Shown: positions 19,375-28,318 of the stretch, one piece after another
Position numbering within the stretch: position 1 is the first letter of the stretch
Layout of the letters: each line of letters opens with the position of its first letter
Origin: an uncultured Methylopila sp.
GTDB taxonomy: Bacteria; Pseudomonadota; Alphaproteobacteria; Rhizobiales; Methylopilaceae
Direction of reading: 5' to 3'
Assembly (NCBI GenBank): GCA_902168115.1
Contig: CABHPB010000141.1
Span: 1-64,000, forward strand
DNA length: 64,000 bases
Position numbers and translations under genes: made by a program
Notes under the pieces: generated by a model
Databases searched by the model: none
Told to the model about the DNA's origin: nothing
The model's input: the letters and a program-made list of their open reading frames with translations, nothing else

Positions 19375-20163
19375 ATGCCCGGAGCGGCGCAGCGCTTGTA
19401 CGCAGAGGCTGCGGACCTGCGCCCGCTGTGGCGGCTCGACGCCGGCCGGACGCTGTTCGTCGGGCCGCTCGACTACAACGCCCCGCACGAGCATGGCGCG
19501 CCCGTCTTCCTGTCGAGTCTCGGCGCGCCGTTCGGGCTTCGCCTCGACGGCGCCGGCGAGTGGCTGTCCTGCCATGCGGCGATGCTGCCGGCGGGAAAGG
19601 TCCATGAGCTTCAGGTGGGCGGCGAGCCGATCGCGGTGCTCTATGTCGAGCCGACGCTCGCGAGCGCCCACGTCTTCGCGCCGCTCTTCGCCGGCTGCGA
19701 GGAGGTCCGCGGCGCGCTGGTCGGACGCTCGAACGTCGTCTCGCTCATCCGCGCGCTCTACGAGGACCACGCGAGCCTCGGCTGGGCGGACGCGGCCCTC
19801 GACGACTTGCTCGCCTATGGCGGCGCGCGAGCCCGGCGGTCGATCGATCCAAGAATCTTGCGGGTTGCGCGGGCTCTCGCATCCTCGAGCGAACCGGCGG
19901 CGCCGCTCGCCGCCTTCGCGCCGGTCGCGAACCTGTCGGCCTCGCGCCTGCGCCGCCTGTTCGCGGAAGAGATCGGCGCGTCCTTCAGCCGGTACCGCGC
20001 ATGGCTCCGGATGCGCCGCGCGATCGACGCGGTCGTCGCCGGCGCCAATTTCACGGCCGCAGCCCATGACGCCGGCTTCGCCGATCAGGCGCACTTCGCC
20101 CATGACTTCCGAAGGACTTTCGGCGCCCCGGCCTCGCGCAGCCTGACCGGCGTGCGGCGCTGA
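19375..20163 (+). CDS. AraC-family transcriptional regulator.
   Basis: It has a C-terminal double HTH (SASRLRRLFAEEIGASFSRYRAWLRMRRA and FADQAHFAHDFRRTFG). Confidence 0.8.
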   Translation: MPGAAQRLYAEAADLRPLWRLDAGRTLFVGPLDYNAPHEHGAPVFLSSLGAPFGLRLDGAGEWLSCHAAMLPAGKVHELQVGGEPIAVLYVEPTLASAHVFAPLFAGCEEVRGALVGRSNVVSLIRALYEDHASLGWADAALDDLLAYGGARARRSIDPRILRVARALASSSEPAAPLAAFAPVANLSASRLRRLFAEEIGASFSRYRAWLRMRRAIDAVVAGANFTAAAHDAGFADQAHFAHDFRRTFGAPASRSLTGVRR

Positions 20164-20273
20164 AAGCAGGCCCGCCACGCAGGCGGCTTTCAGGCCGACG
20201 CGTGCTCCGTCACGACTTGGGCTCTTGTTGCTGATCGCAAGACGAACGAACACGAGTTCGTGTCCAGCCGCGT

Positions 20274-20291
20274 TTGTCACCCATGCGTCAC
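20274..20291 (+). promoter_or_regulatory. Putative Pho box (PhoB site) upstream of the Na/Pi cotransporter-pstS operon.
   Basis: Two direct repeats TTGTCAC-ccat-GCGTCAC have the 7+4 spacing of the CTGTCAT-N4-CTGTCAT consensus. They lie about 145 nt upstream of the start codon. Confidence 0.4.
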
Positions 20292-20434
20292 GTGCCGGAA
20301 ATAGGCGGTTAACCGTGCAGGCGTGTGGGGGGCGACGCCGGGCCGCCGTGTGGCGGCGCGCGCCGTCCTGTCGCGTCTGTTCGGTCAGCGCGGCGCCCGA
20401 ACGGTTCGGACATCGCCATTCGGAGCGGGGTCCG

Positions 20435-22150
20435 ATGCAACAGGTCGACATCTTCACGCAGATCATCGTGCCGGTGATCGGAGGCTTGGGCATCTTCATG
20501 CTCGGCCTCGAATTCATGTCCAACGGCATCCAGTCGCTGGCGGTGAACAAGATGCGGGCGCTGCTCGCCAAGTTCGCCGGAACGCCCGCCAAGGGCGTCG
20601 TCGCCGGCACCTTCATCACCGGCGTCATCCAATCCTCGACCGCGATGACGGTCATGGTCGTCGGTCTCGTCAACGCCGGCGTCGTCGGCCTTCGCCCCGC
20701 GATCTCGGTGATCATGGGCGCCAACATCGGCACGACGCTCGGCAACGGCCTGATCGCCTTGCCGCTCGGGCCGCTCGGCCTGCTGTTCGCAGGGCTGTTC
20801 GCGCTGCTCTACATCTTCGCCAAGTCCGACCGGGTGAAGAACATCGCACTCGCCTGCATCGGCTTTTCGCTGATCTTCTATGGCCTGAACCTCATGACCG
20901 GCGGCCTGAAGCCGCTGCGCTCCATGCCCGAGATCATGGCCGTGATCTCGTCGCTGAAGGCCGACAGCTACGTCAACCTGCTCTACTGCGTGCTGATCGC
21001 GGCCGGCGTCACCGCCATGATCCACTCGTCCTCGGCGACGATCGGCATCGTGATGGGCCTCGGCGCCGCCGGCATCCTCGACTGGAAGACCGCCGTCGCA
21101 TTCTCGCTCGGCGCCGACCTCGGCACCACGATCACCTCGTGGCTCGCCTCGCTGAACCTGTCGAAGAACGCAAAGCGAGCCGCCTACGCGCACATCTCGT
21201 TCAACATCATCGGCGTGATGGTGACGATACCGCTGTTCTTCGTCTCGATGGACGTTCTGACCTGGGCGATGCAGTGGTTCGGCGGCGATCCGGGCGTGCC
21301 GGTGATCGTGAAGGGCAAGGAGACCTTCCCGCTGGTGCCGGTCGCGATCGGCCTCTACTCGACCTTCTTCAACATCTTCAACGTCATCCTGCTCTACCCC
21401 TTCGTCGGCGTGTTCGAGAGCGTTCTGATGAAGGTCGGCGCCTCCTCGCTGGACGACGTCGAGGATTATTCGGTCCCGAAGCACCTGACCGCCGAGGCCG
21501 CCGCGAAGATCGAGACCGCCGTGCCGAGCGTGCTGCGCGAGAACGAGCGCTATCTCGAGGCCGCAATGAAGTTCCTCGACATCGCGCGCGGCAAGGAGGA
21601 CGCGCCCGAGAAGGTCGAGGAGCACTACGGCCAGATGGACATCCTCAACCGCGAGATCCGGGCCTACACCTCCGGCATGTTCAAGGCCGAGATGCCCTAT
21701 GAGCGCGCCGACCTGGTGGCGAGCCTGATCGAGGAGGAGGATCACACGGCCAGCCTCGGCGAGGCGCTCTACCAGATCGCCCGCCGCGTCGAGCGCCAGC
21801 CGTTCGAGGAGAAAGGCCGCGCGCTGGTCGACGCGATGCTCGACCAGGTCGCCGACGCGCTGCGCGTGGTGGTCGACCCGGCGCAGGCGCGCCGCGAGAA
21901 CCTCTCGGCGGAGGCTGCGCCTCGCGTCGCCGCCCTCGGCGAGCTGCGCGCCGAGGCGCTCAGGCTCAACGGCTCCCTGCCATGGGTCGAGCGCGGCGCG
22001 ATCCTGGCCCTGCTGGGAAGCGCCGAGCGGGCCTACTTCCTGATCGAGCGCATCGACGCCGAGCGCCGCTCGGTCTCCCGCGCCGTCCCGGCCGAGGCGC
22101 AGGCCCCGCGCGAGAGCGGCGGCTTCGGCCTCGCCCCGGTCCCGGCGTGA
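20435..22150 (+). CDS. Na+/phosphate cotransporter family protein (NptA-like with a C-terminal PhoU-like domain).
   Basis: It has the duplicated Na/Pi-cotransporter motifs GANIGTT and GADLGTTIT. The ATG at 20435 follows GGAGCGGGG. The protein is 571 aa. Confidence 0.85.
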   Translation: MQQVDIFTQIIVPVIGGLGIFMLGLEFMSNGIQSLAVNKMRALLAKFAGTPAKGVVAGTFITGVIQSSTAMTVMVVGLVNAGVVGLRPAISVIMGANIGTTLGNGLIALPLGPLGLLFAGLFALLYIFAKSDRVKNIALACIGFSLIFYGLNLMTGGLKPLRSMPEIMAVISSLKADSYVNLLYCVLIAAGVTAMIHSSSATIGIVMGLGAAGILDWKTAVAFSLGADLGTTITSWLASLNLSKNAKRAAYAHISFNIIGVMVTIPLFFVSMDVLTWAMQWFGGDPGVPVIVKGKETFPLVPVAIGLYSTFFNIFNVILLYPFVGVFESVLMKVGASSLDDVEDYSVPKHLTAEAAAKIETAVPSVLRENERYLEAAMKFLDIARGKEDAPEKVEEHYGQMDILNREIRAYTSGMFKAEMPYERADLVASLIEEEDHTASLGEALYQIARRVERQPFEEKGRALVDAMLDQVADALRVVVDPAQARRENLSAEAAPRVAALGELRAEALRLNGSLPWVERGAILALLGSAERAYFLIERIDAERRSVSRAVPAEAQAPRESGGFGLAPVPA

Positions 22151-22172
22151 CGGCGCGAGCGAGGAGAGCGAC

Positions 22173-23282
22173 ATGATCGGCTCCATGCTCGACGGGCGCG
22201 CCGTCAGGGCGGCGCGCATCGCCATCGCGGCTCTCGCCGTGGCGGGCGCGGCGCTCGCGGTCGCGCCCGCCGCCGCCCAGACCGTCTCGGGCTCCGGCTC
22301 CACCTTCGTCCAGCCGCTTCTGAACCGCTGGAACCACGATTTTCTGCGCTCGCAGTGGACGGCGGAATCCCAGCCTTCCGGCGGGCTCGACTACGAGGCC
22401 GTCGGCTCGCAGGCCGGCGTCATGCGCCTCAAGGACCGCGCCGTCGACTTCGGCGCGACCGAAGTCCCCCTGTCGCAGGACGAGCTCAAGCAGTACGGCG
22501 TCGCGCAGTTCCCGGTGGCGATCGGCGGCATCGCAGCAGTCGTTAACCTTCCCGGCGTCCGGCCCGGCGCGCTGAAACTTTCGGGCGAACTCATCGCCGA
22601 CATCTATCTCGGCAAGGTCCGGCGCTGGAGCGACCCGGCGATCAGGGCGGTCAATCCTGACCTCGCGCTGCCCGACGCGGACATCGTCGCGGTCCGCCGC
22701 TCCGACGGGTCGGGCTCGACCTTCGCCTTCACGACCTTCCTGTCGGGCGCCAGCGAAGCCTGGAAGCCGGTGGGCGCGGGCCTCGCCGTCCCCTGGCCGG
22801 CCGGCGTCGCGGCCAAGGGCAATGACGGCGTCGCCGAGACGGTGAGGAAGACCGCCAACGCCATCGGCTATGTCGACCTCGCCACCGCCCGGCGCGCCGG
22901 CCTCGTCGCCGCTTCGCTGAAGAACGCCGCCGGCGCCTTCGTCGCGCCGAGCCCGGAGAGTTTTCAGGCGGCCGCCGAGCGCGCCGACTGGAATGCGGCG
23001 AACGATGCCGGCCTGTCCCTGCTCGACGCACCCGGCGAGGCCGCCTACCCGATCGTGACGACGACCTTCGTCCTCGTCCCGAACGACAGGCCGGCCTCCG
23101 TGCGGACCGCCGCCGCCCTCGACTTCTTCAACTGGGGTTTTGAGCGCGGCGTCGTGCAGGCGGCGAGCCTCGGCTACGTGCCGCTGCCGCCAGCGATGGT
23201 CGCGAAGGTGCGCGAGCACTGGCGCGACACGCTCGGCGCGGCGCCGACGCTGCTGCCGGCGGCGGGTCCCGGCCGGAGCTGA
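22173..23282 (+). CDS. PstS-family periplasmic phosphate-binding protein.
   Basis: It has a signal peptide and the GSGSTF phosphate-binding motifs. AGGAGAG lies upstream of the ATG. It starts 20 nt after the transporter gene ends. Confidence 0.85.
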   Translation: MIGSMLDGRAVRAARIAIAALAVAGAALAVAPAAAQTVSGSGSTFVQPLLNRWNHDFLRSQWTAESQPSGGLDYEAVGSQAGVMRLKDRAVDFGATEVPLSQDELKQYGVAQFPVAIGGIAAVVNLPGVRPGALKLSGELIADIYLGKVRRWSDPAIRAVNPDLALPDADIVAVRRSDGSGSTFAFTTFLSGASEAWKPVGAGLAVPWPAGVAAKGNDGVAETVRKTANAIGYVDLATARRAGLVAASLKNAAGAFVAPSPESFQAAAERADWNAANDAGLSLLDAPGEAAYPIVTTTFVLVPNDRPASVRTAAALDFFNWGFERGVVQAASLGYVPLPPAMVAKVREHWRDTLGAAPTLLPAAGPGRS

Positions 23283-23311
23283 TCCGGCTCGATCGTCCGA
23301 CGTCGAGACAA

Positions 23312-23338
23312 GGCCCCGGACCCGTCCGGGGCCTTTTT
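23312..23338 (+). terminator. Rho-independent terminator after pstS.
   Basis: The stem is ggccccgg-acccgt-ccggggcc, followed by TTTTT. Confidence 0.65.
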
Positions 23339-23450
23339 CGTCGTGCGCCTGCGCCTGACCTGTCGTCCCGACTACGGGTACCTCAATACTGCAACACGAG
23401 TTCTTAAGCCCGCGGTGCGACGATCAGCTGATCAACAACGGGCAGGCGTC

Positions 23451-24497
23451 ATGCCGAAGAGACTCATTTGCGCCTTGCTGGCCGCGCTTTCGGCCGCGGC
23501 GCCGGCTGGGGCGGAAACCCTCAACCTGCTCAACTGGGAAAAGTATGTCGACCAGTCGATCCTCGACGCCTGGACGGCGAAGACCGGGGTCGCGGTGCGG
23601 CAGACCTATTTCGACAGCGGCGACGCGCGCGACGAGATCCTGACCGACCCGCTGAGCAGCGTCGACCTCGTGGTCATCGGCGACAACGGCGCGCGGCTTT
23701 ACGGCCGCCGCGGCGTGCTCGAGACGCTCGACGAGAAGAAAGTCTCGTCTCTGGCCGAGTATCCCGAAGATCTGCGCGGGCGCTGCGGCGGGTACGGCGT
23801 GCCTTATTTCACGGGAACCATGGGCATTCTCTACCGTTCCGACCGGATGAGCGTCGCGCCTACGTCCTGGAACGACCTGATGTCGCCAGCGGACGCCCTG
23901 AAGGGCCACGTCGCGATGTACAACGACCCGACGGAGATGTTCGTCGCCCCGCTGGTCGCGCTCGGCAAGTCGATCAACGCCTCCGACCCCAAGACGCTCA
24001 AGGCCGCGTTCGAGCTGCTGAAGGCGCAGGAGCCGGCGGTCCGGACCTACGACTACATTCTGACCTCGTCGCAGAACCCGACCTATGGCGACGAGATCTA
24101 CATGGCGCTCGGCTACAGCGGCGATCAGTTCGCGCTGAACGACATGCCGAAGTCGAGCGGCGCCTGGAAGTTCGCGTTGCCGCGCGAGGGCTCGCTCTAC
24201 TGGCTCGACTGCATGAGCGTCGTCGCCTCCTCGCCCCAGAAGGCGCTGGCGCTCGACCTCCTGAACCACATCGCCGCCGAGCCGAACGCCCTGATCAACG
24301 CCATGGCCCAGCAGCGCCCGACGCCGAACCTCAAGGCCCTGCCGAAGGTGCCGGAGGACATGCGCAAGAACGAGATGATCTACCCGCCGGCCGACGTGCT
24401 CGCGAAGAGCGAGGCACCGCGCGAGCTCACGCCGGAGGGAATCCAGACCCGAAGGCGGATCATCAGCTCGCTGGTGAACTTCCGTGACGCTCGGTAG
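23451..24497 (+). CDS. PotD/PotF-family periplasmic polyamine-binding protein (NspS-like sensor candidate).
   Basis: It has a signal peptide (MPKRLICALLAALSAAAPAGA) and the spermidine/putrescine-binding fold. Its stop overlaps the downstream GGDEF-EAL gene by 14 nt. Confidence 0.8.
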   Translation: MPKRLICALLAALSAAAPAGAETLNLLNWEKYVDQSILDAWTAKTGVAVRQTYFDSGDARDEILTDPLSSVDLVVIGDNGARLYGRRGVLETLDEKKVSSLAEYPEDLRGRCGGYGVPYFTGTMGILYRSDRMSVAPTSWNDLMSPADALKGHVAMYNDPTEMFVAPLVALGKSINASDPKTLKAAFELLKAQEPAVRTYDYILTSSQNPTYGDEIYMALGYSGDQFALNDMPKSSGAWKFALPREGSLYWLDCMSVVASSPQKALALDLLNHIAAEPNALINAMAQQRPTPNLKALPKVPEDMRKNEMIYPPADVLAKSEAPRELTPEGIQTRRRIISSLVNFRDAR

Positions 24498-26817
24498 ACG
24501 CGCTTTCTTCCTCATCTTCCCGGTGGTCTTCGCCGGCTACGCCATAGCCGCGTGTCTCGTCTACGTTTCGCAGCGCGACAGCCAGCAGCGGCTCGAACAG
24601 GCCCGGCTCAGCCAGCAGCTCGAGCATCTGCGCGTCCTGTTCGAGAGCGACGACGGCGTCGACCGCAGCTTCCTGCACGCGATGACCGGCGGCGGCGCCT
24701 TGCGGAGTTTCCTTCAGGAGACCGACGACGCCTATCGCAGCCACGCGCTCGGCGTGCGCCTGCAGCAGGCGATCGACTCGGTCGCGGGCGACAAGCGCTC
24801 GCTTCTGACCTTCTCGATCATGAACAGCGCGCTCAGCGTCGAGCACTATTTCGAGAACAGCACCGACCCCTTCGCCGAGATCGACCCCGAACAGGTGACG
24901 TTCGCCCGGCGCGTCATGACGGACCGTGGCAAGAGCTCCTGGGCGTTCCTTTCGCCCGAGGGCGGCAGGCCCTGGATCGTCCACGCCGACTTCGTCGATC
25001 CGCTCACCATGAACAGGCCGCTCGCGAGCCGGACCCACGCCGCGGTGCTGCTGATGGCGGCGGTGCGGCCGGAGCGGTTCCTGGCGATGAAGCGGGAGCT
25101 CGAGGCCGAGTACGGAGCGAAGCTCGAGATCGCCGACAAGCGGTTCGCCCCGACCGACGGGCTGTCGGCCTCGACCGAGCTCGCCTCGAGCGCCTTCGCG
25201 CGCATGACGCCCGCCGAAAGCTACTTCGGCGACCGGCTCTGGCCGCTCAAGTTCTGGCTGGCGGTCGGCACGATCGTCGTCAGCCTGCTGTCGATCAGCC
25301 TGCTGATGGCGCTGATCCGGCGCTTCATCACGCGCCCGATCGCGCGGCTCGACCGGCAACTGACCGACGTGCTCGCCGGCGAGCGCGCCTCGATCGCGAT
25401 CGCGGAGGAAGGCGGCGAGATCGGCAGCCTCTCGATCAACATGAAGAACCTGCACGACGACTTCGTGCAGTCGCTGAACGGCATCCAGACCGCGTCCTGG
25501 ACGGACACGCTGACGGGCATCAGCAACCGCGCGCATTTCAACGTTCTGGCCGCCGAAGCGCTGGAGTCCGCGGCCCGGCGCGGCTCGCAGTGCGGCCTGC
25601 TGTTCATCGACGTCGACAACTTCAAGTTCGTCAACGACCGCTTCGGCCACGAGATCGGCGACGGCCTCCTGAGGGAGCTCGCCGGGCGCTTCGCCGAAGT
25701 GGTGACGGACGCGGCCGGCCGCGAGAACGTCGCGCGGACCATCTTCGCGCGGCTTTCGGGCGACGAGTTCGCAGTGCTGGTCGAGAGCGGGGATGCGGCG
25801 GCGACGGCCAAGGAGGTCGCGAGCGAACTGCTCGCCGTCAGCGCCTCAGGCTTCGGCGAGCGCTTCCCGATCGGGGTGAGCATCGGCGTCGCCTCGACGA
25901 CGCAGGAGACCGCCGTCTCGCTCGACGAGCTGCTCGCGGACGCCGACGCTGCGATGTACGAGGCCAAGGCCGCCGGCAAGAACCGCTGGGCCAGCTTCTC
26001 GCGCGAGCTGCTCGAGAAGCGCAGCCGCGAGCGCGCCGTCCGGGACGCCCTGCGCGTCCTCGACCTGGACGAAGAGTTCCGGCTCGTCTTCATGCCGATC
26101 GTGGACGTCGACGGTCGCGTCGTCGCATGCGAGGCGCTGCTGCGCTGGACGTCGCCGACGCTCGGGGACGTCAGGCCGGACGAATTCATCCCCATCGCGG
26201 AGCGCAACGGGCTTTTCGCCGTGATCGACCGGTGGGTGATCGACAGGGCGCTGACGGAGCACGAGCGCCTCGCCGCGCTGTTCGGGGCCGACATCGTCGT
26301 CAGCATCAACGTGTCCTCGGCGGAACTCAGCACCATGTCGCTTCGCGACTATCTGGCGGAGCGCCTGTCGGTCCGCGGCGTCGATCCGGCCCTTGTCGAG
26401 ATCGAACTGACCGAGACCTTCGCCGCCGGCTCCCGCCCGGAGGTTCACCGGAGCGTGCGGGCGCTGCGCGACATCGGCGTCAGGATCGCGATCGACGACT
26501 TCGGCGCCGGCTACACCTCGATCCAGCAGATCACCGAATACTCGGTGGACACGATCAAGCTCGACCGCATCTTCGCCGAGCGTCTCGTCAGCTCCAGCGA
26601 GACGCTGCGCGCCCTGGTCGCGCTCTGCCATGCGCAGGGCATGCGAATCGTCGCCGAGGGCATCGACAGCCCCGAGAAGCAGGCGCTCTTCAGCGAAGTC
26701 GGCTGCGACGGCCTTCAGGGCTTCGGGATCTGCCGGCCGCTCGCGCTCGCGGACCTTGGCGTATGGGCGCTCGCGCGCGTGGTCAGCGCGGCGCGGGAGC
26801 GCAGGCGAGCCGTATGA
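24484..26817 (+). CDS. Membrane-bound GGDEF-EAL protein with a periplasmic sensor domain and HAMP (MbaA-like c-di-GMP phosphodiesterase).
   Basis: It has two TM segments flanking a periplasmic domain of about 230 aa. The GGDEF site is degenerate (RLSGDEFAV). The EAL domain has ACEALLRW plus DDFGAGYTS. The alternative-frame ORF 24552..26840 was rejected. Confidence 0.85.
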   Translation: MTLGRRAFFLIFPVVFAGYAIAACLVYVSQRDSQQRLEQARLSQQLEHLRVLFESDDGVDRSFLHAMTGGGALRSFLQETDDAYRSHALGVRLQQAIDSVAGDKRSLLTFSIMNSALSVEHYFENSTDPFAEIDPEQVTFARRVMTDRGKSSWAFLSPEGGRPWIVHADFVDPLTMNRPLASRTHAAVLLMAAVRPERFLAMKRELEAEYGAKLEIADKRFAPTDGLSASTELASSAFARMTPAESYFGDRLWPLKFWLAVGTIVVSLLSISLLMALIRRFITRPIARLDRQLTDVLAGERASIAIAEEGGEIGSLSINMKNLHDDFVQSLNGIQTASWTDTLTGISNRAHFNVLAAEALESAARRGSQCGLLFIDVDNFKFVNDRFGHEIGDGLLRELAGRFAEVVTDAAGRENVARTIFARLSGDEFAVLVESGDAAATAKEVASELLAVSASGFGERFPIGVSIGVASTTQETAVSLDELLADADAAMYEAKAAGKNRWASFSRELLEKRSRERAVRDALRVLDLDEEFRLVFMPIVDVDGRVVACEALLRWTSPTLGDVRPDEFIPIAERNGLFAVIDRWVIDRALTEHERLAALFGADIVVSINVSSAELSTMSLRDYLAERLSVRGVDPALVEIELTETFAAGSRPEVHRSVRALRDIGVRIAIDDFGAGYTSIQQITEYSVDTIKLDRIFAERLVSSSETLRALVALCHAQGMRIVAEGIDSPEKQALFSEVGCDGLQGFGICRPLALADLGVWALARVVSAARERRRAV

Positions 26818-27049: not shown

Positions 27050-28318
27050 ATGCGTCATCTCCGCGTCACGCGAATACCGTCCTGCCGCACAATCACGGGT
27101 GCGCACATGATCTACGCGATGGCTCAGGCCGCAGCGCCGGACCGATTCTTCGACGGCTTCGAGGATAGGGGACGGCTGCAGGCGCACGGGCTCTACGACC
27201 GCATCCGGCAGTTTCGATCCGGCGGAGACGCCGATCTCGCCGTCCTCGTGTCCGATCTCCTCGCCCGCGCCGACCGCGCCCTGCAGCGCGGCCCCTACTC
27301 CGTGACGCACAAGACCGCGACGCCGCCGAGCGGCGACAAGCGCGACTACATGCACCTCGCGCCCTATTACTGGCCGAATCCGGACACGCCCGACGGGCTT
27401 CCCTATGTGCGCCGTGACGGCCGCCGCGCGCCGGGCACCATGCTCAACGGAGAGCAGAGCGAGCTCTACGACCGCACGCGCGTGCAGAACCTGTTCGACG
27501 ACAGCTACGTCCTGTGCCTCGCCTGGCGCTTCAAGCCGCGGCCGGCCTATCTCGACCACGCCGCCTCGCTGCTCGAGACGTTCTTCGTCGATCCCGAGAC
27601 GCGGATGCGGCCGCATCTGCGCTACGCCCAGATCCGCCCGGGCCACAACAGGAACATCGGGCCCTGCTCCGGCCTGATCGAGCTCAAGGACTTCTTCTAC
27701 TACCTGGACGCCGTGCGCCTGATGGCTTCCGAAGGCGCGCTGGAGCCTCCGACGCTCGCCGCCTTCAACCACTGGCTCGCCGACTATCTCGACTGGCTGC
27801 TGCGCTCCTCGCAGGGACAGGGGGAAGCGCGGGCGACCAACAATCACGGCGTCTATTATGATCTCCAGGTCGCGGCCATCGCGGCCTTTCTCGGCTGGAC
27901 CGACGTGGTCGAGGACGCGCTGCGGCGCGCGAGGCGGCGGCTGCCGGCGCATTTCGACGCCGACGGCGCGCAGCCGCAGGAGCTCGATCGGGCCGAAACA
28001 GAGCATTACTGCTGCTTCAACCTGCAGGGCTGGATCAACCTCGCGGAGCTTGCCGAGCAGTACGGCGAGGACCTGTGGTCCTACGAGGCGGTCAACGGCG
28101 CGAACCTGAAGACGGCGGCGGTCTGGCTGCTGGACGAGTCGGCCGGGTCGTGGGGACACGCGCAGTCGCAGCCGTTCGAGGCCGAGCGCATCCTGCCGAT
28201 CTGGGCCGCCGCGAGCGAGCGTCTGGATCCGGCCCCGAAACGCCCTGCGAGGCTGCCGCGGCTGTTCCACGCCAAGCCGATGCTGTCGCAGGGCGTGCGC
28301 CCGTTTTGGCAGATCTGA
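27050..28318 (+). CDS. Alginate-lyase-family (polysaccharide-lyase-like) protein with no obvious signal peptide.
   Basis: The protein contains HLAPYYWPNPDTPDGLPYVRRDG and WL..DYLDWLL. Possible starts are 27026 (GTG), 27050 (ATG) and 27107 (ATG), so the start is uncertain. The printed line 27001 also looks offset by one base relative to the track. Confidence 0.6.
   Translation: MRHLRVTRIPSCRTITGAHMIYAMAQAAAPDRFFDGFEDRGRLQAHGLYDRIRQFRSGGDADLAVLVSDLLARADRALQRGPYSVTHKTATPPSGDKRDYMHLAPYYWPNPDTPDGLPYVRRDGRRAPGTMLNGEQSELYDRTRVQNLFDDSYVLCLAWRFKPRPAYLDHAASLLETFFVDPETRMRPHLRYAQIRPGHNRNIGPCSGLIELKDFFYYLDAVRLMASEGALEPPTLAAFNHWLADYLDWLLRSSQGQGEARATNNHGVYYDLQVAAIAAFLGWTDVVEDALRRARRRLPAHFDADGAQPQELDRAETEHYCCFNLQGWINLAELAEQYGEDLWSYEAVNGANLKTAAVWLLDESAGSWGHAQSQPFEAERILPIWAAASERLDPAPKRPARLPRLFHAKPMLSQGVRPFWQI

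What the first reader, a model, noticed from the sequence alone, without database searches (positions are those of the whole stretch)
20251..23338. Pho-box-like repeat in front of an unusual bicistron: a secondary Na/Pi cotransporter followed by a PstS-like binding protein with no PstCAB
TTGTCAC-N4-GCGTCAC lies about 145 nt upstream of a 571-aa NptA-type Na/Pi cotransporter. That gene is followed 20 nt later by a signal-peptide PstS-family phosphate-binding protein and a strong terminator. PstS normally partners with the PstCAB ABC permease. A PstS genetically coupled to a secondary transporter suggests either a phosphate-scavenging or sensing accessory protein, or a binding-protein-dependent secondary transport arrangement.
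Basis: partly seen in the sequence, partly recalled or inferred. Interest (0 to 1): 0.55.

Follow-up and report, generated by a model that had tools for sequence, protein, structure and literature searches.

The report
Pho-box operon pairing PstS with Na/Pi carrier
A phosphate-starvation promoter drives two genes, a sodium/phosphate carrier with a PhoU-like tail and a periplasmic phosphate-binding protein PstS; this pair is conserved across many Alphaproteobacteria with no ABC permease nearby, so the binding protein may work with the carrier.

Summary
TTGTCAC-CCAT-GCGTCAC lies at 20274-20291, 143 nt before the ATG of a 571-aa Na/Pi cotransporter (20435-22150). A PstS gene (22173-23282) follows 22 nt later, then a strong hairpin and U-tract (23310-23338).

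The repeat is a credible Pho box. Alone it is only borderline above chance. However, an 11-bp-period GTCAY repeat in the same orientation sits upstream of 40 of 44 orthologous genes (0.03 expected per region). A conserved -10-like element follows 9 nt later.

No pstC, pstA or phoU occurs in the 64-kb window or within about 5-10 kb of the pair in 86 related loci. PstS lies next to this carrier in 53 of 80 genomes, in three gene arrangements. It is the only partner shared across the clades.

- The carrier has a PhoU-fold C-terminal domain.
- Its clade has a conserved periplasmic hairpin insertion that is absent from six distant homologues, five of which were shown to lack an adjacent PstS.

My best reading is a PhoB-controlled two-gene phosphate module in which PstS works with the carrier (about 0.45). 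The main rival is an accessory PstS that serves a PstCAB encoded elsewhere (about 0.35). I found no published description.

The parts
20274..20291 (+). Pho-box-like direct repeat TTGTCAC-CCAT-GCGTCAC. It is two 7-mers with 11-bp periodicity and a GTCAY core.
   Evidence: Read directly. The core is found by the DNA search, with 2 matches in the window against 0.27 expected. The same repeat, in the same orientation, occurs upstream of the orthologous gene in 40 of 44 loci against 0.03 expected per 350 nt. The same scan recovers the E. coli pstS and phoB Pho boxes.
20301..20306 (+). Putative -10 hexamer ATAGGC, 9 nt after the repeat. The inferred transcription start is near 20312-20316.
   Evidence: A (C/A)TA(G/A) element follows the repeat after about 9 nt in most relatives: CTAGGA in Bosea, CTAGCG in Phreatobacter, AAATAG or AAATAC in Methylopilaceae. 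It is an A/T-rich island in 70% GC DNA. The transcription start is inferred, not measured.
20435..22150 (+). Na/Pi cotransporter family gene (571 aa plus stop). It belongs to the SLC34/PF02690 family and has the YjbB / S. aureus-NptA-like architecture.
   Evidence: PF02690 matches twice at 1.8e-50, and NF037997 scores 193.7 bits. A profile of the family matches solved SLC34A2 structures at 3.5e-14. It is 22% identical to E. coli YjbB over YjbB residues 4-472. The QSST and HSSS signature motifs are visible in the translation. The start codon is supported by 571-aa orthologues.
21275..21340 (+). Clade-specific conserved insertion WFGGDPGVPVIVKGKETFPLVP (aa 281-302) in the loop before the last transmembrane helix. 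It is predicted to be a periplasmic beta-hairpin.
   Evidence: It is present and nearly invariant in N>P, P>N and Bosea orthologues. It is absent from E. coli YjbB, S. aureus NptA, Rhizobium T136, Agrobacterium pTi and two Burkholderia homologues. AF2 predicts strands at 290-292 and 295-297. The periplasmic location is inferred from the positive-inside rule and the cytoplasmic PhoU-like domain that follows.
21491..22072 (+). C-terminal six-helix domain (aa 353-546) with a PhoU-like fold.
   Evidence: The AF2 model gives pLDDT 85-96 and six helices here. The only high-probability Foldseek hits are PhoU and PhoU-like proteins (1t8b, 4q25, 1t72, 1sum, 2olt): probability 0.94-1.0, TM-score 0.53-0.63 over about 205 columns, but E-values only 0.26-1.5. 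There is no Pfam PhoU hit and hhalign is weak.
22173..23282 (+). PstS-family periplasmic phosphate-binding protein gene (369 aa plus stop). A Shine-Dalgarno sequence GAGGAGAG lies in the 22-nt gap.
   Evidence: TIGR00975 scores 321 bits against a cutoff of 205. It is 40% identical to E. coli PstS. All eight Pi-ligand positions are conserved or conservatively replaced (D56E, T141S). An identical protein is on a public contig (P0121).
23310..23338 (+). Intrinsic terminator: stem AAGGCCCCGGA / UCCGGGGCCUU, loop CCCG, then UUUUU.
   Evidence: strand folding gives -34.7 kcal/mol for 23283-23345, z = -3.6, with 0 of 200 shuffles as stable. The consensus scan did not list it.

Best explanation
This is a PhoB-controlled bicistronic phosphate-acquisition operon. 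I read it as a two-gene module in which the binding protein works with the secondary carrier.

Shown, or strongly supported by comparison:
- A Pho box sits in the -35 position, 9 nt upstream of a -10-like hexamer.
- It precedes a Na/Pi cotransporter-family gene whose product has a cytoplasmic PhoU-fold tail.
- A Sec-type PstS gene follows 22 nt later.
- An intrinsic terminator ends the unit.

Inferred steps:
- Under Pi limitation, PhoB~P binds the repeat and recruits RNA polymerase, so both proteins are made together.
- PstS is exported and captures Pi with its conserved ligand set.
- PstS then docks on the carrier, for which the clade-specific periplasmic hairpin (aa 281-302) is the candidate site. 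It either hands Pi over for cation-coupled import or gates the carrier.
- The PhoU-like tail throttles transport and/or reports flux to PhoR, as PhoU does for PstSCAB.

On this reading the pair is a compact, ATP-independent analogue of PstS-PstCAB-PhoU. I put the Pho-regulated Pi-acquisition operon at about 0.8. I put the specific PstS-carrier coupling at about 0.45, and that is the figure given as confidence.
For: Promoter:
- The repeat is conserved in 40 of 44 orthologous upstream regions against 0.03 expected per region. It is always on the coding strand and is followed by a (C/A)TA(G/A) element after about 9 nt.
- Positive controls: the same scan recovers the E. coli pstS and phoB boxes.

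Operon:
- The gap is 22 nt and contains a Shine-Dalgarno sequence.
- The terminator lies after PstS only.

Pairing:
- PstS is adjacent to this carrier in 53 of 80 genomes of several alphaproteobacterial orders plus a Methylibium MAG.
- Three arrangements occur: 18 carrier-then-PstS, 31 PstS-then-carrier, 4 divergent.
- No other gene family is shared across the clades.
- No PstC, PstA or PhoU is found in any of 86 loci or in the window.
- In the divergent loci L013 and L015, each gene has its own box.
- Seven of nine database PstS relatives whose context I looked up (47-100% identity) are next to the carrier, and none is next to PstC.
- Matching contig lengths between the two hit lists point to about ten more linked pairs.
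- The pair also sits on plasmids and chromids as a unit.

Carrier features:
- PhoU-fold tail.
- The clade-specific conserved periplasmic insertion is absent from six outgroup homologues. The neighbourhoods of five of them (not E. coli YjbB) were inspected, and none has PstS.

PstS ligand residues are conserved.

Precedent: in S. aureus the PhoU domain of NptA modulates PhoPR (PMC13170248).
Against: - No characterised PF02690 transporter is known to need a binding protein (own knowledge; S. aureus NptA in PMC13170248).
- Twenty-seven of the 80 orthologous loci, mostly Bosea at 78-81% identity, keep the Pho box and the periplasmic insertion but have no PstS within 10 kb. PstS is therefore not obligatory, or its gene lies elsewhere.
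- Free-standing PstS paralogues are common and can serve PstCAB. Cyanobacterial and cyanophage examples appear. Orphan relatives of this PstS occur alone or at the head of an ars operon.
- pstCAB-linked PstS proteins are not clearly separated from the carrier-linked ones in my NJ tree.
- The Rhizobium/Neorhizobium/Phyllobacterium group shows no Pho box upstream of the pair.
- No physical interaction, fusion protein or expression data was obtained.
- The PhoU-fold match has weak E-values.
Confidence: 0.45

Rival explanations
1. Accessory PstS. The operon is Pho-regulated, but its two products act independently. The carrier imports Pi on its own. The PstS paralogue delivers Pi to a canonical PstCAB encoded elsewhere in the genome. 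Adjacency reflects co-regulation and shared history only.
For: - PstS scores as a full TIGR00975 equivalog and keeps all Pi ligands.
- It is as close to pstCAB-linked PstS of Azospirillum, Tistrella, Ralstonia and E. coli (40-47% identity) as to the carrier-linked PstS of rhizobia. The tree does not separate them.
- Bosea carriers lack PstS yet keep the Pho box.
- Orphan PstS relatives exist in other contexts.
- The literature has unlinked or phage-borne PstS feeding the host Pst system.
Against: - Adjacency to this one carrier clade is kept through three gene arrangements and across orders, even where the genes are not co-transcribed.
- None of the 9 sampled relatives or 86 loci has pstC or pstA nearby.
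- The carrier clade carries a conserved periplasmic insertion of otherwise unexplained function.
- The pair moves as a unit on plasmids.
Confidence: 0.35
2. Sensor or homeostasis module. PstS plus the carrier with its PhoU-like tail acts mainly as a Pi sensor or valve. It either signals Pi status to PhoR or exports and buffers Pi linked to polyphosphate turnover, as proposed for E. coli YjbB. Net high-affinity uptake is not its main role.
For: - PhoU-fold tail.
- The NptA PhoU domain modulates PhoPR in S. aureus, and YjbB is reported as not sufficient for Pi import (PMC13170248).
- RefSeq names E. coli YjbB a putative Pi export protein.
- In Rhizobiaceae the pair sits beside DUF808, CHAD, CorA and PPK2 genes.
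Against: - The Pho box lies in an activating position, which fits induction when Pi is scarce. Export makes little sense under that condition.
- A high-affinity periplasmic binding protein has no obvious role for an exporter.
- The polyphosphate neighbourhood is limited to one family.
Confidence: 0.12
3. The repeat is a chance match or the site of another OmpR-family regulator. The two genes are neighbours with no common control.
For: - It matches only 9 of 14 positions of the E. coli consensus.
- Two core matches in the window against 0.27 expected is weak alone.
- No sigma-70 consensus promoter was found by the simple scan.
- An AraC-family gene lies just upstream.
Against: - Conservation in 40 of 44 orthologous promoters, with fixed orientation and fixed spacing to a -10-like element.
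- The core equals the TGTCA Pho-box core, and the scan recovers known Pho boxes.
- The AraC gene is not conserved next to the pair.
- The gap is 22 nt with no terminator.
Confidence: 0.04

Closest known systems
PstSCAB-PhoU phosphate ABC importer and its PhoB-dependent pstS promoter (E. coli)
   Same: - A PstS of the same equivalog family with the same Pi ligands.
- A Pho box of two 11-bp units in place of the -35 element, about 10 nt before the -10.
- A PhoU-type module attached to the translocator.
   Different: - The translocator is a secondary carrier (PF02690), not PstC/PstA/PstB.
- There is no ATPase.
- The PhoU-like part is fused to the carrier.
- There are two genes instead of five.
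S. aureus-type NptA and E. coli YjbB (Na/Pi cotransporter family with a C-terminal PhoU-like domain; PMC13170248)
   Same: - Same domain order: two Na_Pi_cotrans repeats followed by a helical PhoU-fold tail.
- S. aureus nptA is also induced by the Pi-responsive two-component system.
   Different: - Only 22-29% identity.
- Those proteins lack the periplasmic hairpin insertion. S. aureus nptA has no adjacent PstS. The yjbB neighbourhood was not checked for PstS, although the 7-kb stretch lists none.
- No Pho box was found upstream of E. coli yjbB.
Binding-protein-dependent secondary transporters (TRAP DctPQM, TTT TctABC)
   Same: A periplasmic binding-protein gene is kept next to a cation-coupled secondary carrier gene with no ABC ATPase. 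It is a possible high-affinity, ATP-independent uptake system.
   Different: - The binding protein is a PstS rather than DctP, TAXI or TctC.
- The carrier is SLC34-like and is a single polypeptide.
- Dependence is unproven and is not universal, because Bosea orthologues lack PstS.
Free-standing PstS paralogues (cyanobacterial PstS/SphX copies, cyanophage PstS, PstS in ars islands)
   Same: A pstS gene that is not next to pstCAB and is under Pi-stress control.
   Different: Here the gene is consistently tied to one particular membrane carrier clade across orders. Those paralogues are not tied in this way.

Membership tests
Pho box / PhoB-dependent promoter | Two direct 7-nt repeats related to CTGTCAT, with 11-bp periodicity, on the coding strand | tested here: met
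   TTGTCAC-N4-GCGTCAC at 20274-20291 matches 9 of 14 consensus positions and 10 of 10 of the GTCAY cores. The same scan finds the E. coli pstS and phoB boxes.
Pho box / PhoB-dependent promoter | The box replaces the -35 element and lies about 10 nt upstream of a -10 element | tested here: met
   A 9-nt spacer is followed by ATAGGC. The equivalent (C/A)TA(G/A) element is conserved at the same spacing in relatives. The transcription start was not mapped.
Pho box / PhoB-dependent promoter | Conservation in orthologous promoters | tested here: met
   Found in 14 of 17 carrier-first loci and 26 of 27 PstS-less loci, against a background of 0.03 per 350 nt. It is absent upstream of the pair in the Rhizobium/Neorhizobium group.
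Pho box / PhoB-dependent promoter | PhoB binding and induction under Pi limitation | not testable with these tools
   This needs EMSA or ChIP and expression data. No phoB or phoR is in the window.
PstS (TIGR00975, phosphate ABC transporter substrate-binding protein) | Score above the curated equivalog cutoff | tested here: met
   321.3 bits against a cutoff of 205. NF008171 scores 294, below its cutoff of 339.
PstS (TIGR00975, phosphate ABC transporter substrate-binding protein) | Pi-ligand residues T10, F11, S38, D56, R135, S139, G140, T141 (E. coli mature numbering, recalled from the crystal structure literature) | tested here: met
   Six are identical. D56E and T141S are conservative changes.
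PstS (TIGR00975, phosphate ABC transporter substrate-binding protein) | Genetic linkage to, and function with, PstC/PstA/PstB | tested here: not met
   No PstC or PstA hit occurs in the 64-kb window or in 86 related loci. A pstCAB elsewhere in the genome could not be checked.
Na/Pi cotransporter family (PF02690; SLC34 / NptA / YjbB) | Two Na_Pi_cotrans repeat units with QSSS-type motifs | tested here: met
   PF02690 gives two stretches at 1.8e-50. NF037997 scores 193.7 against a cutoff of 50. The IQSST and IHSSSAT motifs are present. A family profile matches SLC34A2 structures at 3.5e-14.
Na/Pi cotransporter family (PF02690; SLC34 / NptA / YjbB) | C-terminal PhoU-like domain (YjbB / S. aureus NptA subtype) | tested here: inconclusive
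   The fold matches: the PhoU hits have probability 0.94-1.0 and TM-score 0.53-0.63, but E-values of only 0.26-1.5. There is no Pfam PhoU hit, and hhalign against PhoU is insignificant. The protein aligns with the YjbB C-terminus at E = 0.006.
Na/Pi cotransporter family (PF02690; SLC34 / NptA / YjbB) | Na+-coupled Pi transport activity and its direction | not testable with these tools
   This needs uptake assays.
Binding-protein-dependent secondary transporters (TRAP / TTT) | Binding-protein gene conserved next to a secondary-carrier gene, with no ABC ATPase | tested here: met
   53 of 80 genomes have the pair, in three arrangements, and PstS is the only partner shared across clades.
Binding-protein-dependent secondary transporters (TRAP / TTT) | Component families: DctP/TAXI with DctQM, or TctC with TctAB | tested here: not met
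   The components are PstS (PBP_like_2) and PF02690. This is not a member of either family.
Binding-protein-dependent secondary transporters (TRAP / TTT) | Transport strictly requires the binding protein | not testable with these tools
   Indirect evidence argues against strict dependence. Twenty-seven orthologous loci, mostly Bosea, have no adjacent PstS.

The most novel reading that the evidence does not exclude
PstS and this SLC34-like carrier form a previously undescribed class of binding-protein-dependent secondary transporter. It would be a third class beside TRAP and TTT. PstS docks on the clade-specific periplasmic hairpin and gives a cation-driven carrier micromolar or sub-micromolar affinity for Pi. 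The fused PhoU-like tail does the job of PhoU. Together they are a two-gene, ATP-free equivalent of PstSCAB-PhoU, widespread in Alphaproteobacteria and mobile on plasmids.
Probability: 0.35. Interest if true: 0.8.

Novelty: new variant of a known kind. Interest (0 to 1): 0.6.

Why it matters
High-affinity phosphate uptake in bacteria is attributed almost entirely to the ATP-driven PstSCAB system. Na/Pi carriers are seen as low-affinity systems that need no binding protein.

A conserved, Pho-regulated PstS-carrier pair suggests a cheaper route to phosphate scavenging. It would extend binding-protein-dependent secondary transport to an anion and to a carrier family that includes the human SLC34 transporters.

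It also offers a simple two-gene system for studying how PhoU-type domains couple transport to Pi signalling. This includes soil and plant-associated bacteria such as Rhizobium, Mesorhizobium and Methylobacterium, where phosphate supply matters agronomically.

Even if PstS only feeds PstCAB, the work defines a well-supported alphaproteobacterial Pho-box promoter architecture and a new Pho-regulon member.

Tried and rejected
- Pfam on the C-terminal 251 aa at E up to 10 gave no PhoU hit. hhalign of the C-terminal alignment against E. coli PhoU was insignificant, and only E = 0.006 against the YjbB C-terminus. The fold had to be used instead.
- The simple promoter/terminator scan found no sigma-70 consensus and missed the obvious terminator. 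I folded the region directly.
- Rfam scan of 20100-23500 found nothing meaningful. The 5' leader fold is not more stable than shuffles, z = -1.5. There is no riboswitch-like element.
- The NJ tree of PstS could not separate the carrier-linked lineages from pstCAB-linked PstS. I make no claim of a distinct PstS subfamily.
- A JGI contig carries a 468-aa product with both Na_Pi_cotrans and PBP_like_2 hits. Compared with the intact relative L093, it looks like a roughly 1.3-kb deletion or misassembly. No DNA was available, so I rejected it as fusion evidence.
- The AraC-family gene upstream is not conserved next to the pair, so I rejected it as part of the system.
- The strict motif about 4.2 kb upstream of PstS in Rhizobium loci is not positioned in front of the pair. 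I did not pursue it.
- Six literature searches found no description of a PstS-Na/Pi carrier pair.
- Yuan et al. 2006, on rhizobial Pho-box predictions, is not held in the library.


Full report
**1. What is in the sequence**

The window is 69.5% G+C. Its closest named relatives are Methylopilaceae: the carrier is 92% identical to those of Methylopila turkensis and Hansschlegelia zhihuaiae.

- An AraC-family gene ends at 20163. A 271-nt intergenic region follows, containing TTGTCAC-CCAT-GCGTCAC at 20274-20291.
- A 571-aa ORF starts at ATG 20435. It has two Na_Pi_cotrans (PF02690) stretches and matches the NCBIfam 'Na/Pi symporter' subfamily.
- After a 22-nt gap with a GAGGAGAG Shine-Dalgarno sequence comes a 369-aa protein. 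It scores 321 bits on the PstS equivalog TIGR00975 (cutoff 205). It is 40% identical to E. coli PstS.
- An 11-bp GC-rich stem with a U5 tract at 23310-23338 follows the stop codon. The fold is -34.7 kcal/mol and no shuffle folds as well.

**2. Is pstCAB nearby?**

No. I ran tblastn with PstC, PstA, PstB and PhoU from E. coli, Azospirillum, Tistrella and Ralstonia, and with E. coli PhoB and PhoR. There was no PstC, PstA, PhoU, PhoB or PhoR hit in the 64-kb window. PstB queries hit only generic ABC ATPases at about 30% identity. A canonical pst operon elsewhere in the genome could not be checked.

**3. Is the repeat a Pho box?**

On its own it is borderline. The core GTCAY-N6-GTCAY occurs twice in the window against 0.27 expected. 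Comparison settles it.

- I fetched 80 genomic loci encoding orthologues of the carrier at 65-92% identity.
- The strict core is rare, with 38 matches in 1.6 Mb on both strands. It sits 60-170 nt upstream of the carrier gene, on the coding strand, in the window and in nine relatives with the same gene order.
- Allowing one mismatch, it is present within 350 nt upstream of the carrier in 14 of 17 loci with that gene order. It is also present in 26 of 27 loci without PstS (Bosea: AGTCAC-N5-TGTCGC). The background is 0.03 per region.
- The flanks are not conserved, with 45% mean column identity.
- A (C/A)TA(G/A) element follows the repeat at a fixed spacing of about 9 nt in most loci (ATAGGC at 20301-20306 here). 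That is the geometry of PhoB-dependent promoters, where the box replaces the -35 element.
- The same scan recovers the classical E. coli pstS and phoB boxes.

One caveat applies. In the Rhizobium/Neorhizobium/Phyllobacterium group, where PstS comes first, no such box was found upstream of the pair. Pho control may therefore not be universal.

**4. The gene pair is conserved**

- A PstS homologue lies next to the carrier gene in 53 of the 80 genomes.
  - 18 have carrier then PstS: Methylopila, Hansschlegelia, Chenggangzhangella, Methylobacterium, Chelatococcus, Phreatobacter, Stella, Roseomonas aerilata and a Methylibium MAG.
  - 31 have PstS then carrier: Rhizobium, Neorhizobium, Mesorhizobium, Phyllobacterium, Shinella, Skermanella and Rhabdaerophilum.
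  - 4 are divergent. In the divergent loci L013 and L015, each gene has its own box.
- Clustering all ORFs of the loci shows no other gene family shared across clades.
- None of the 86 loci examined has PstC, PstA or PhoU within the flanks fetched, about 5-10 kb.
- I looked up the context of nine database PstS relatives at 47-100% identity. Seven are next to this carrier, two are orphans (one heads an ars operon), and none is next to PstC.
- The pair also occurs on plasmids and chromids. RefSeq calls the two genes simply 'PstS' and 'Na/Pi symporter'.
- Distant carrier homologues at 29% identity or less have no PstS beside them. These are in a Rhizobium plasmid, Agrobacterium pTi, Burkholderia and S. 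aureus.

**5. Features of the two proteins**

PstS:
- It keeps all eight Pi-ligand positions of the E. coli protein. D56E and T141S are conservative changes.
- D56E is typical of the window's clade, while all four pstCAB-linked PstS proteins have D.

The carrier:
- It is 22% identical to E. coli YjbB over most of its length.
- The AlphaFold model has mean pLDDT 75. The transmembrane part is modest, but aa 353-546 form six helices at pLDDT 85-96.
- The only structurally meaningful PDB matches are PhoU and PhoU-like proteins: probability 0.94-1.0 and TM-score 0.53-0.63 over about 205 columns, although E-values are weak. Sequence methods did not detect PhoU.
- This is the architecture recently described for S. 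aureus NptA, whose PhoU domain modulates PhoPR (PMC13170248).
- The whole PstS-associated carrier clade, Bosea included, carries a nearly invariant insertion of about 16 residues, WFGGDPGVPVIVKGKETFPLVP (aa 281-302), in the loop before the last transmembrane helix. All six outgroup homologues lack it.
- The preceding loop is rich in Lys and Arg, and the following domain is PhoU-like and therefore cytoplasmic. The insertion should thus face the periplasm. This is an inference.

**6. Interpretation**

The part I hold firmly, at about 0.8, is that this is a PhoB-type promoter driving a bicistronic Pi-acquisition operon.

What PstS does with its phosphate is open. Three observations favour PstS working directly with the carrier, by delivery or gating, with the PhoU-like tail acting as PhoU does for Pst:
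- the persistence of adjacency through three arrangements and across orders;
- the absence of any ABC permease nearby;
- the clade-specific periplasmic insertion.

I give this about 0.45. Three observations count against it:
- characterised members of the family work without binding proteins;
- 27 orthologous loci, mostly Bosea, lack PstS while keeping both the box and the insertion;
- free-standing PstS paralogues serving PstCAB are well documented.

The accessory-PstS rival gets about 0.35. A sensor or exporter role gets about 0.12. That reading is prompted by the YjbB literature and by the DUF808-CHAD-CorA-PPK2 neighbourhood in Rhizobiaceae. Chance gets about 0.04.

**7. Comparison with known systems, and novelty**

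- The promoter is an ordinary Pho box.
- PstS is a member of TIGR00975 by sequence, but it fails the genomic-linkage criterion.
- The carrier is a PF02690 member of the YjbB / S. aureus-NptA architectural type.
- The pair resembles TRAP and TTT systems in logic but is a member of neither.
- Six full-text searches found no description of this pair.

I rate it a new variant of a known kind, with interest 0.6. The genomic evidence is strong and the question is directly testable, but no functional evidence exists and an ordinary explanation remains nearly as likely.

Noticed in passing
window 23448-26817 (+): A PotD/PotF-like binding protein (SBP_bac_8) overlaps by 14 nt the start of a membrane GGDEF-EAL protein (24484-26817). 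It looks like an NspS-MbaA-type pair in which a binding protein signals to c-di-GMP turnover; that resemblance is from memory. A GGDEF-EAL homologue also lies downstream of the pair in the Methylopila and Hansschlegelia loci.
   Followed up: partly
window 27052-27069 (+): This is the second and only other strict Pho-box-like repeat in the window, GCGTCAT-CTCC-GCGTCAC. It lies 37 nt before the ATG (27107) of a PF05426 (alginate-lyase family) gene at 27107-28318. It may be another Pho-regulon member. No homologue is present in the related loci, so conservation could not be tested.
   Followed up: partly
L085 5902-12951 (Shinella plasmid pcSHIWSC3); clusters 9 and 14 in L050-L070: In Rhizobiaceae the pair is followed by DUF808, CHAD-domain, CorA and PPK2 genes. 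It is preceded by patatin-like, acetoacetate decarboxylase and 3-hydroxybutyrate dehydrogenase genes. This is a polyphosphate and PHB neighbourhood, and no Pho box was detectable upstream of the pair.
   Followed up: partly
L093 998-6077: A variant operon reads: carrier, then a membrane-anchored PBP_like_2 protein (304 aa), then an SBP_bac_3 plus ligand-gated ion-channel protein (GluR0-like), then PstS. Pho-box-like repeats lie before both the carrier and PstS. A related JGI contig has an apparent carrier-PBP fusion of 468 aa, probably a deletion.
   Followed up: partly
window 22173-23282 (PstS residue aligned to E. coli mature D56): The Pi-ligand Asp56 is Glu in the window's PstS clade and in Skermanella. 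It is Asp in all four pstCAB-linked PstS proteins examined. The effect on affinity or anion selectivity is unknown.
   Followed up: no
L096 5001-8066; L095 5001-6062: Relatives of this PstS at 49-50% identity occur as orphans. One heads an arsenic-resistance operon (ArsR, LMW phosphatase-type ArsC, aquaglyceroporin, ArsC). One stands alone beside a TRAP transporter.
   Followed up: no
L099 590-5656 (Burkholderia pyrrocinia plasmid): Two distant Na/Pi cotransporter paralogues (689 aa and 553 aa) flank a free-standing phoU gene. This is another way of pairing this carrier family with a PhoU function.
   Followed up: no
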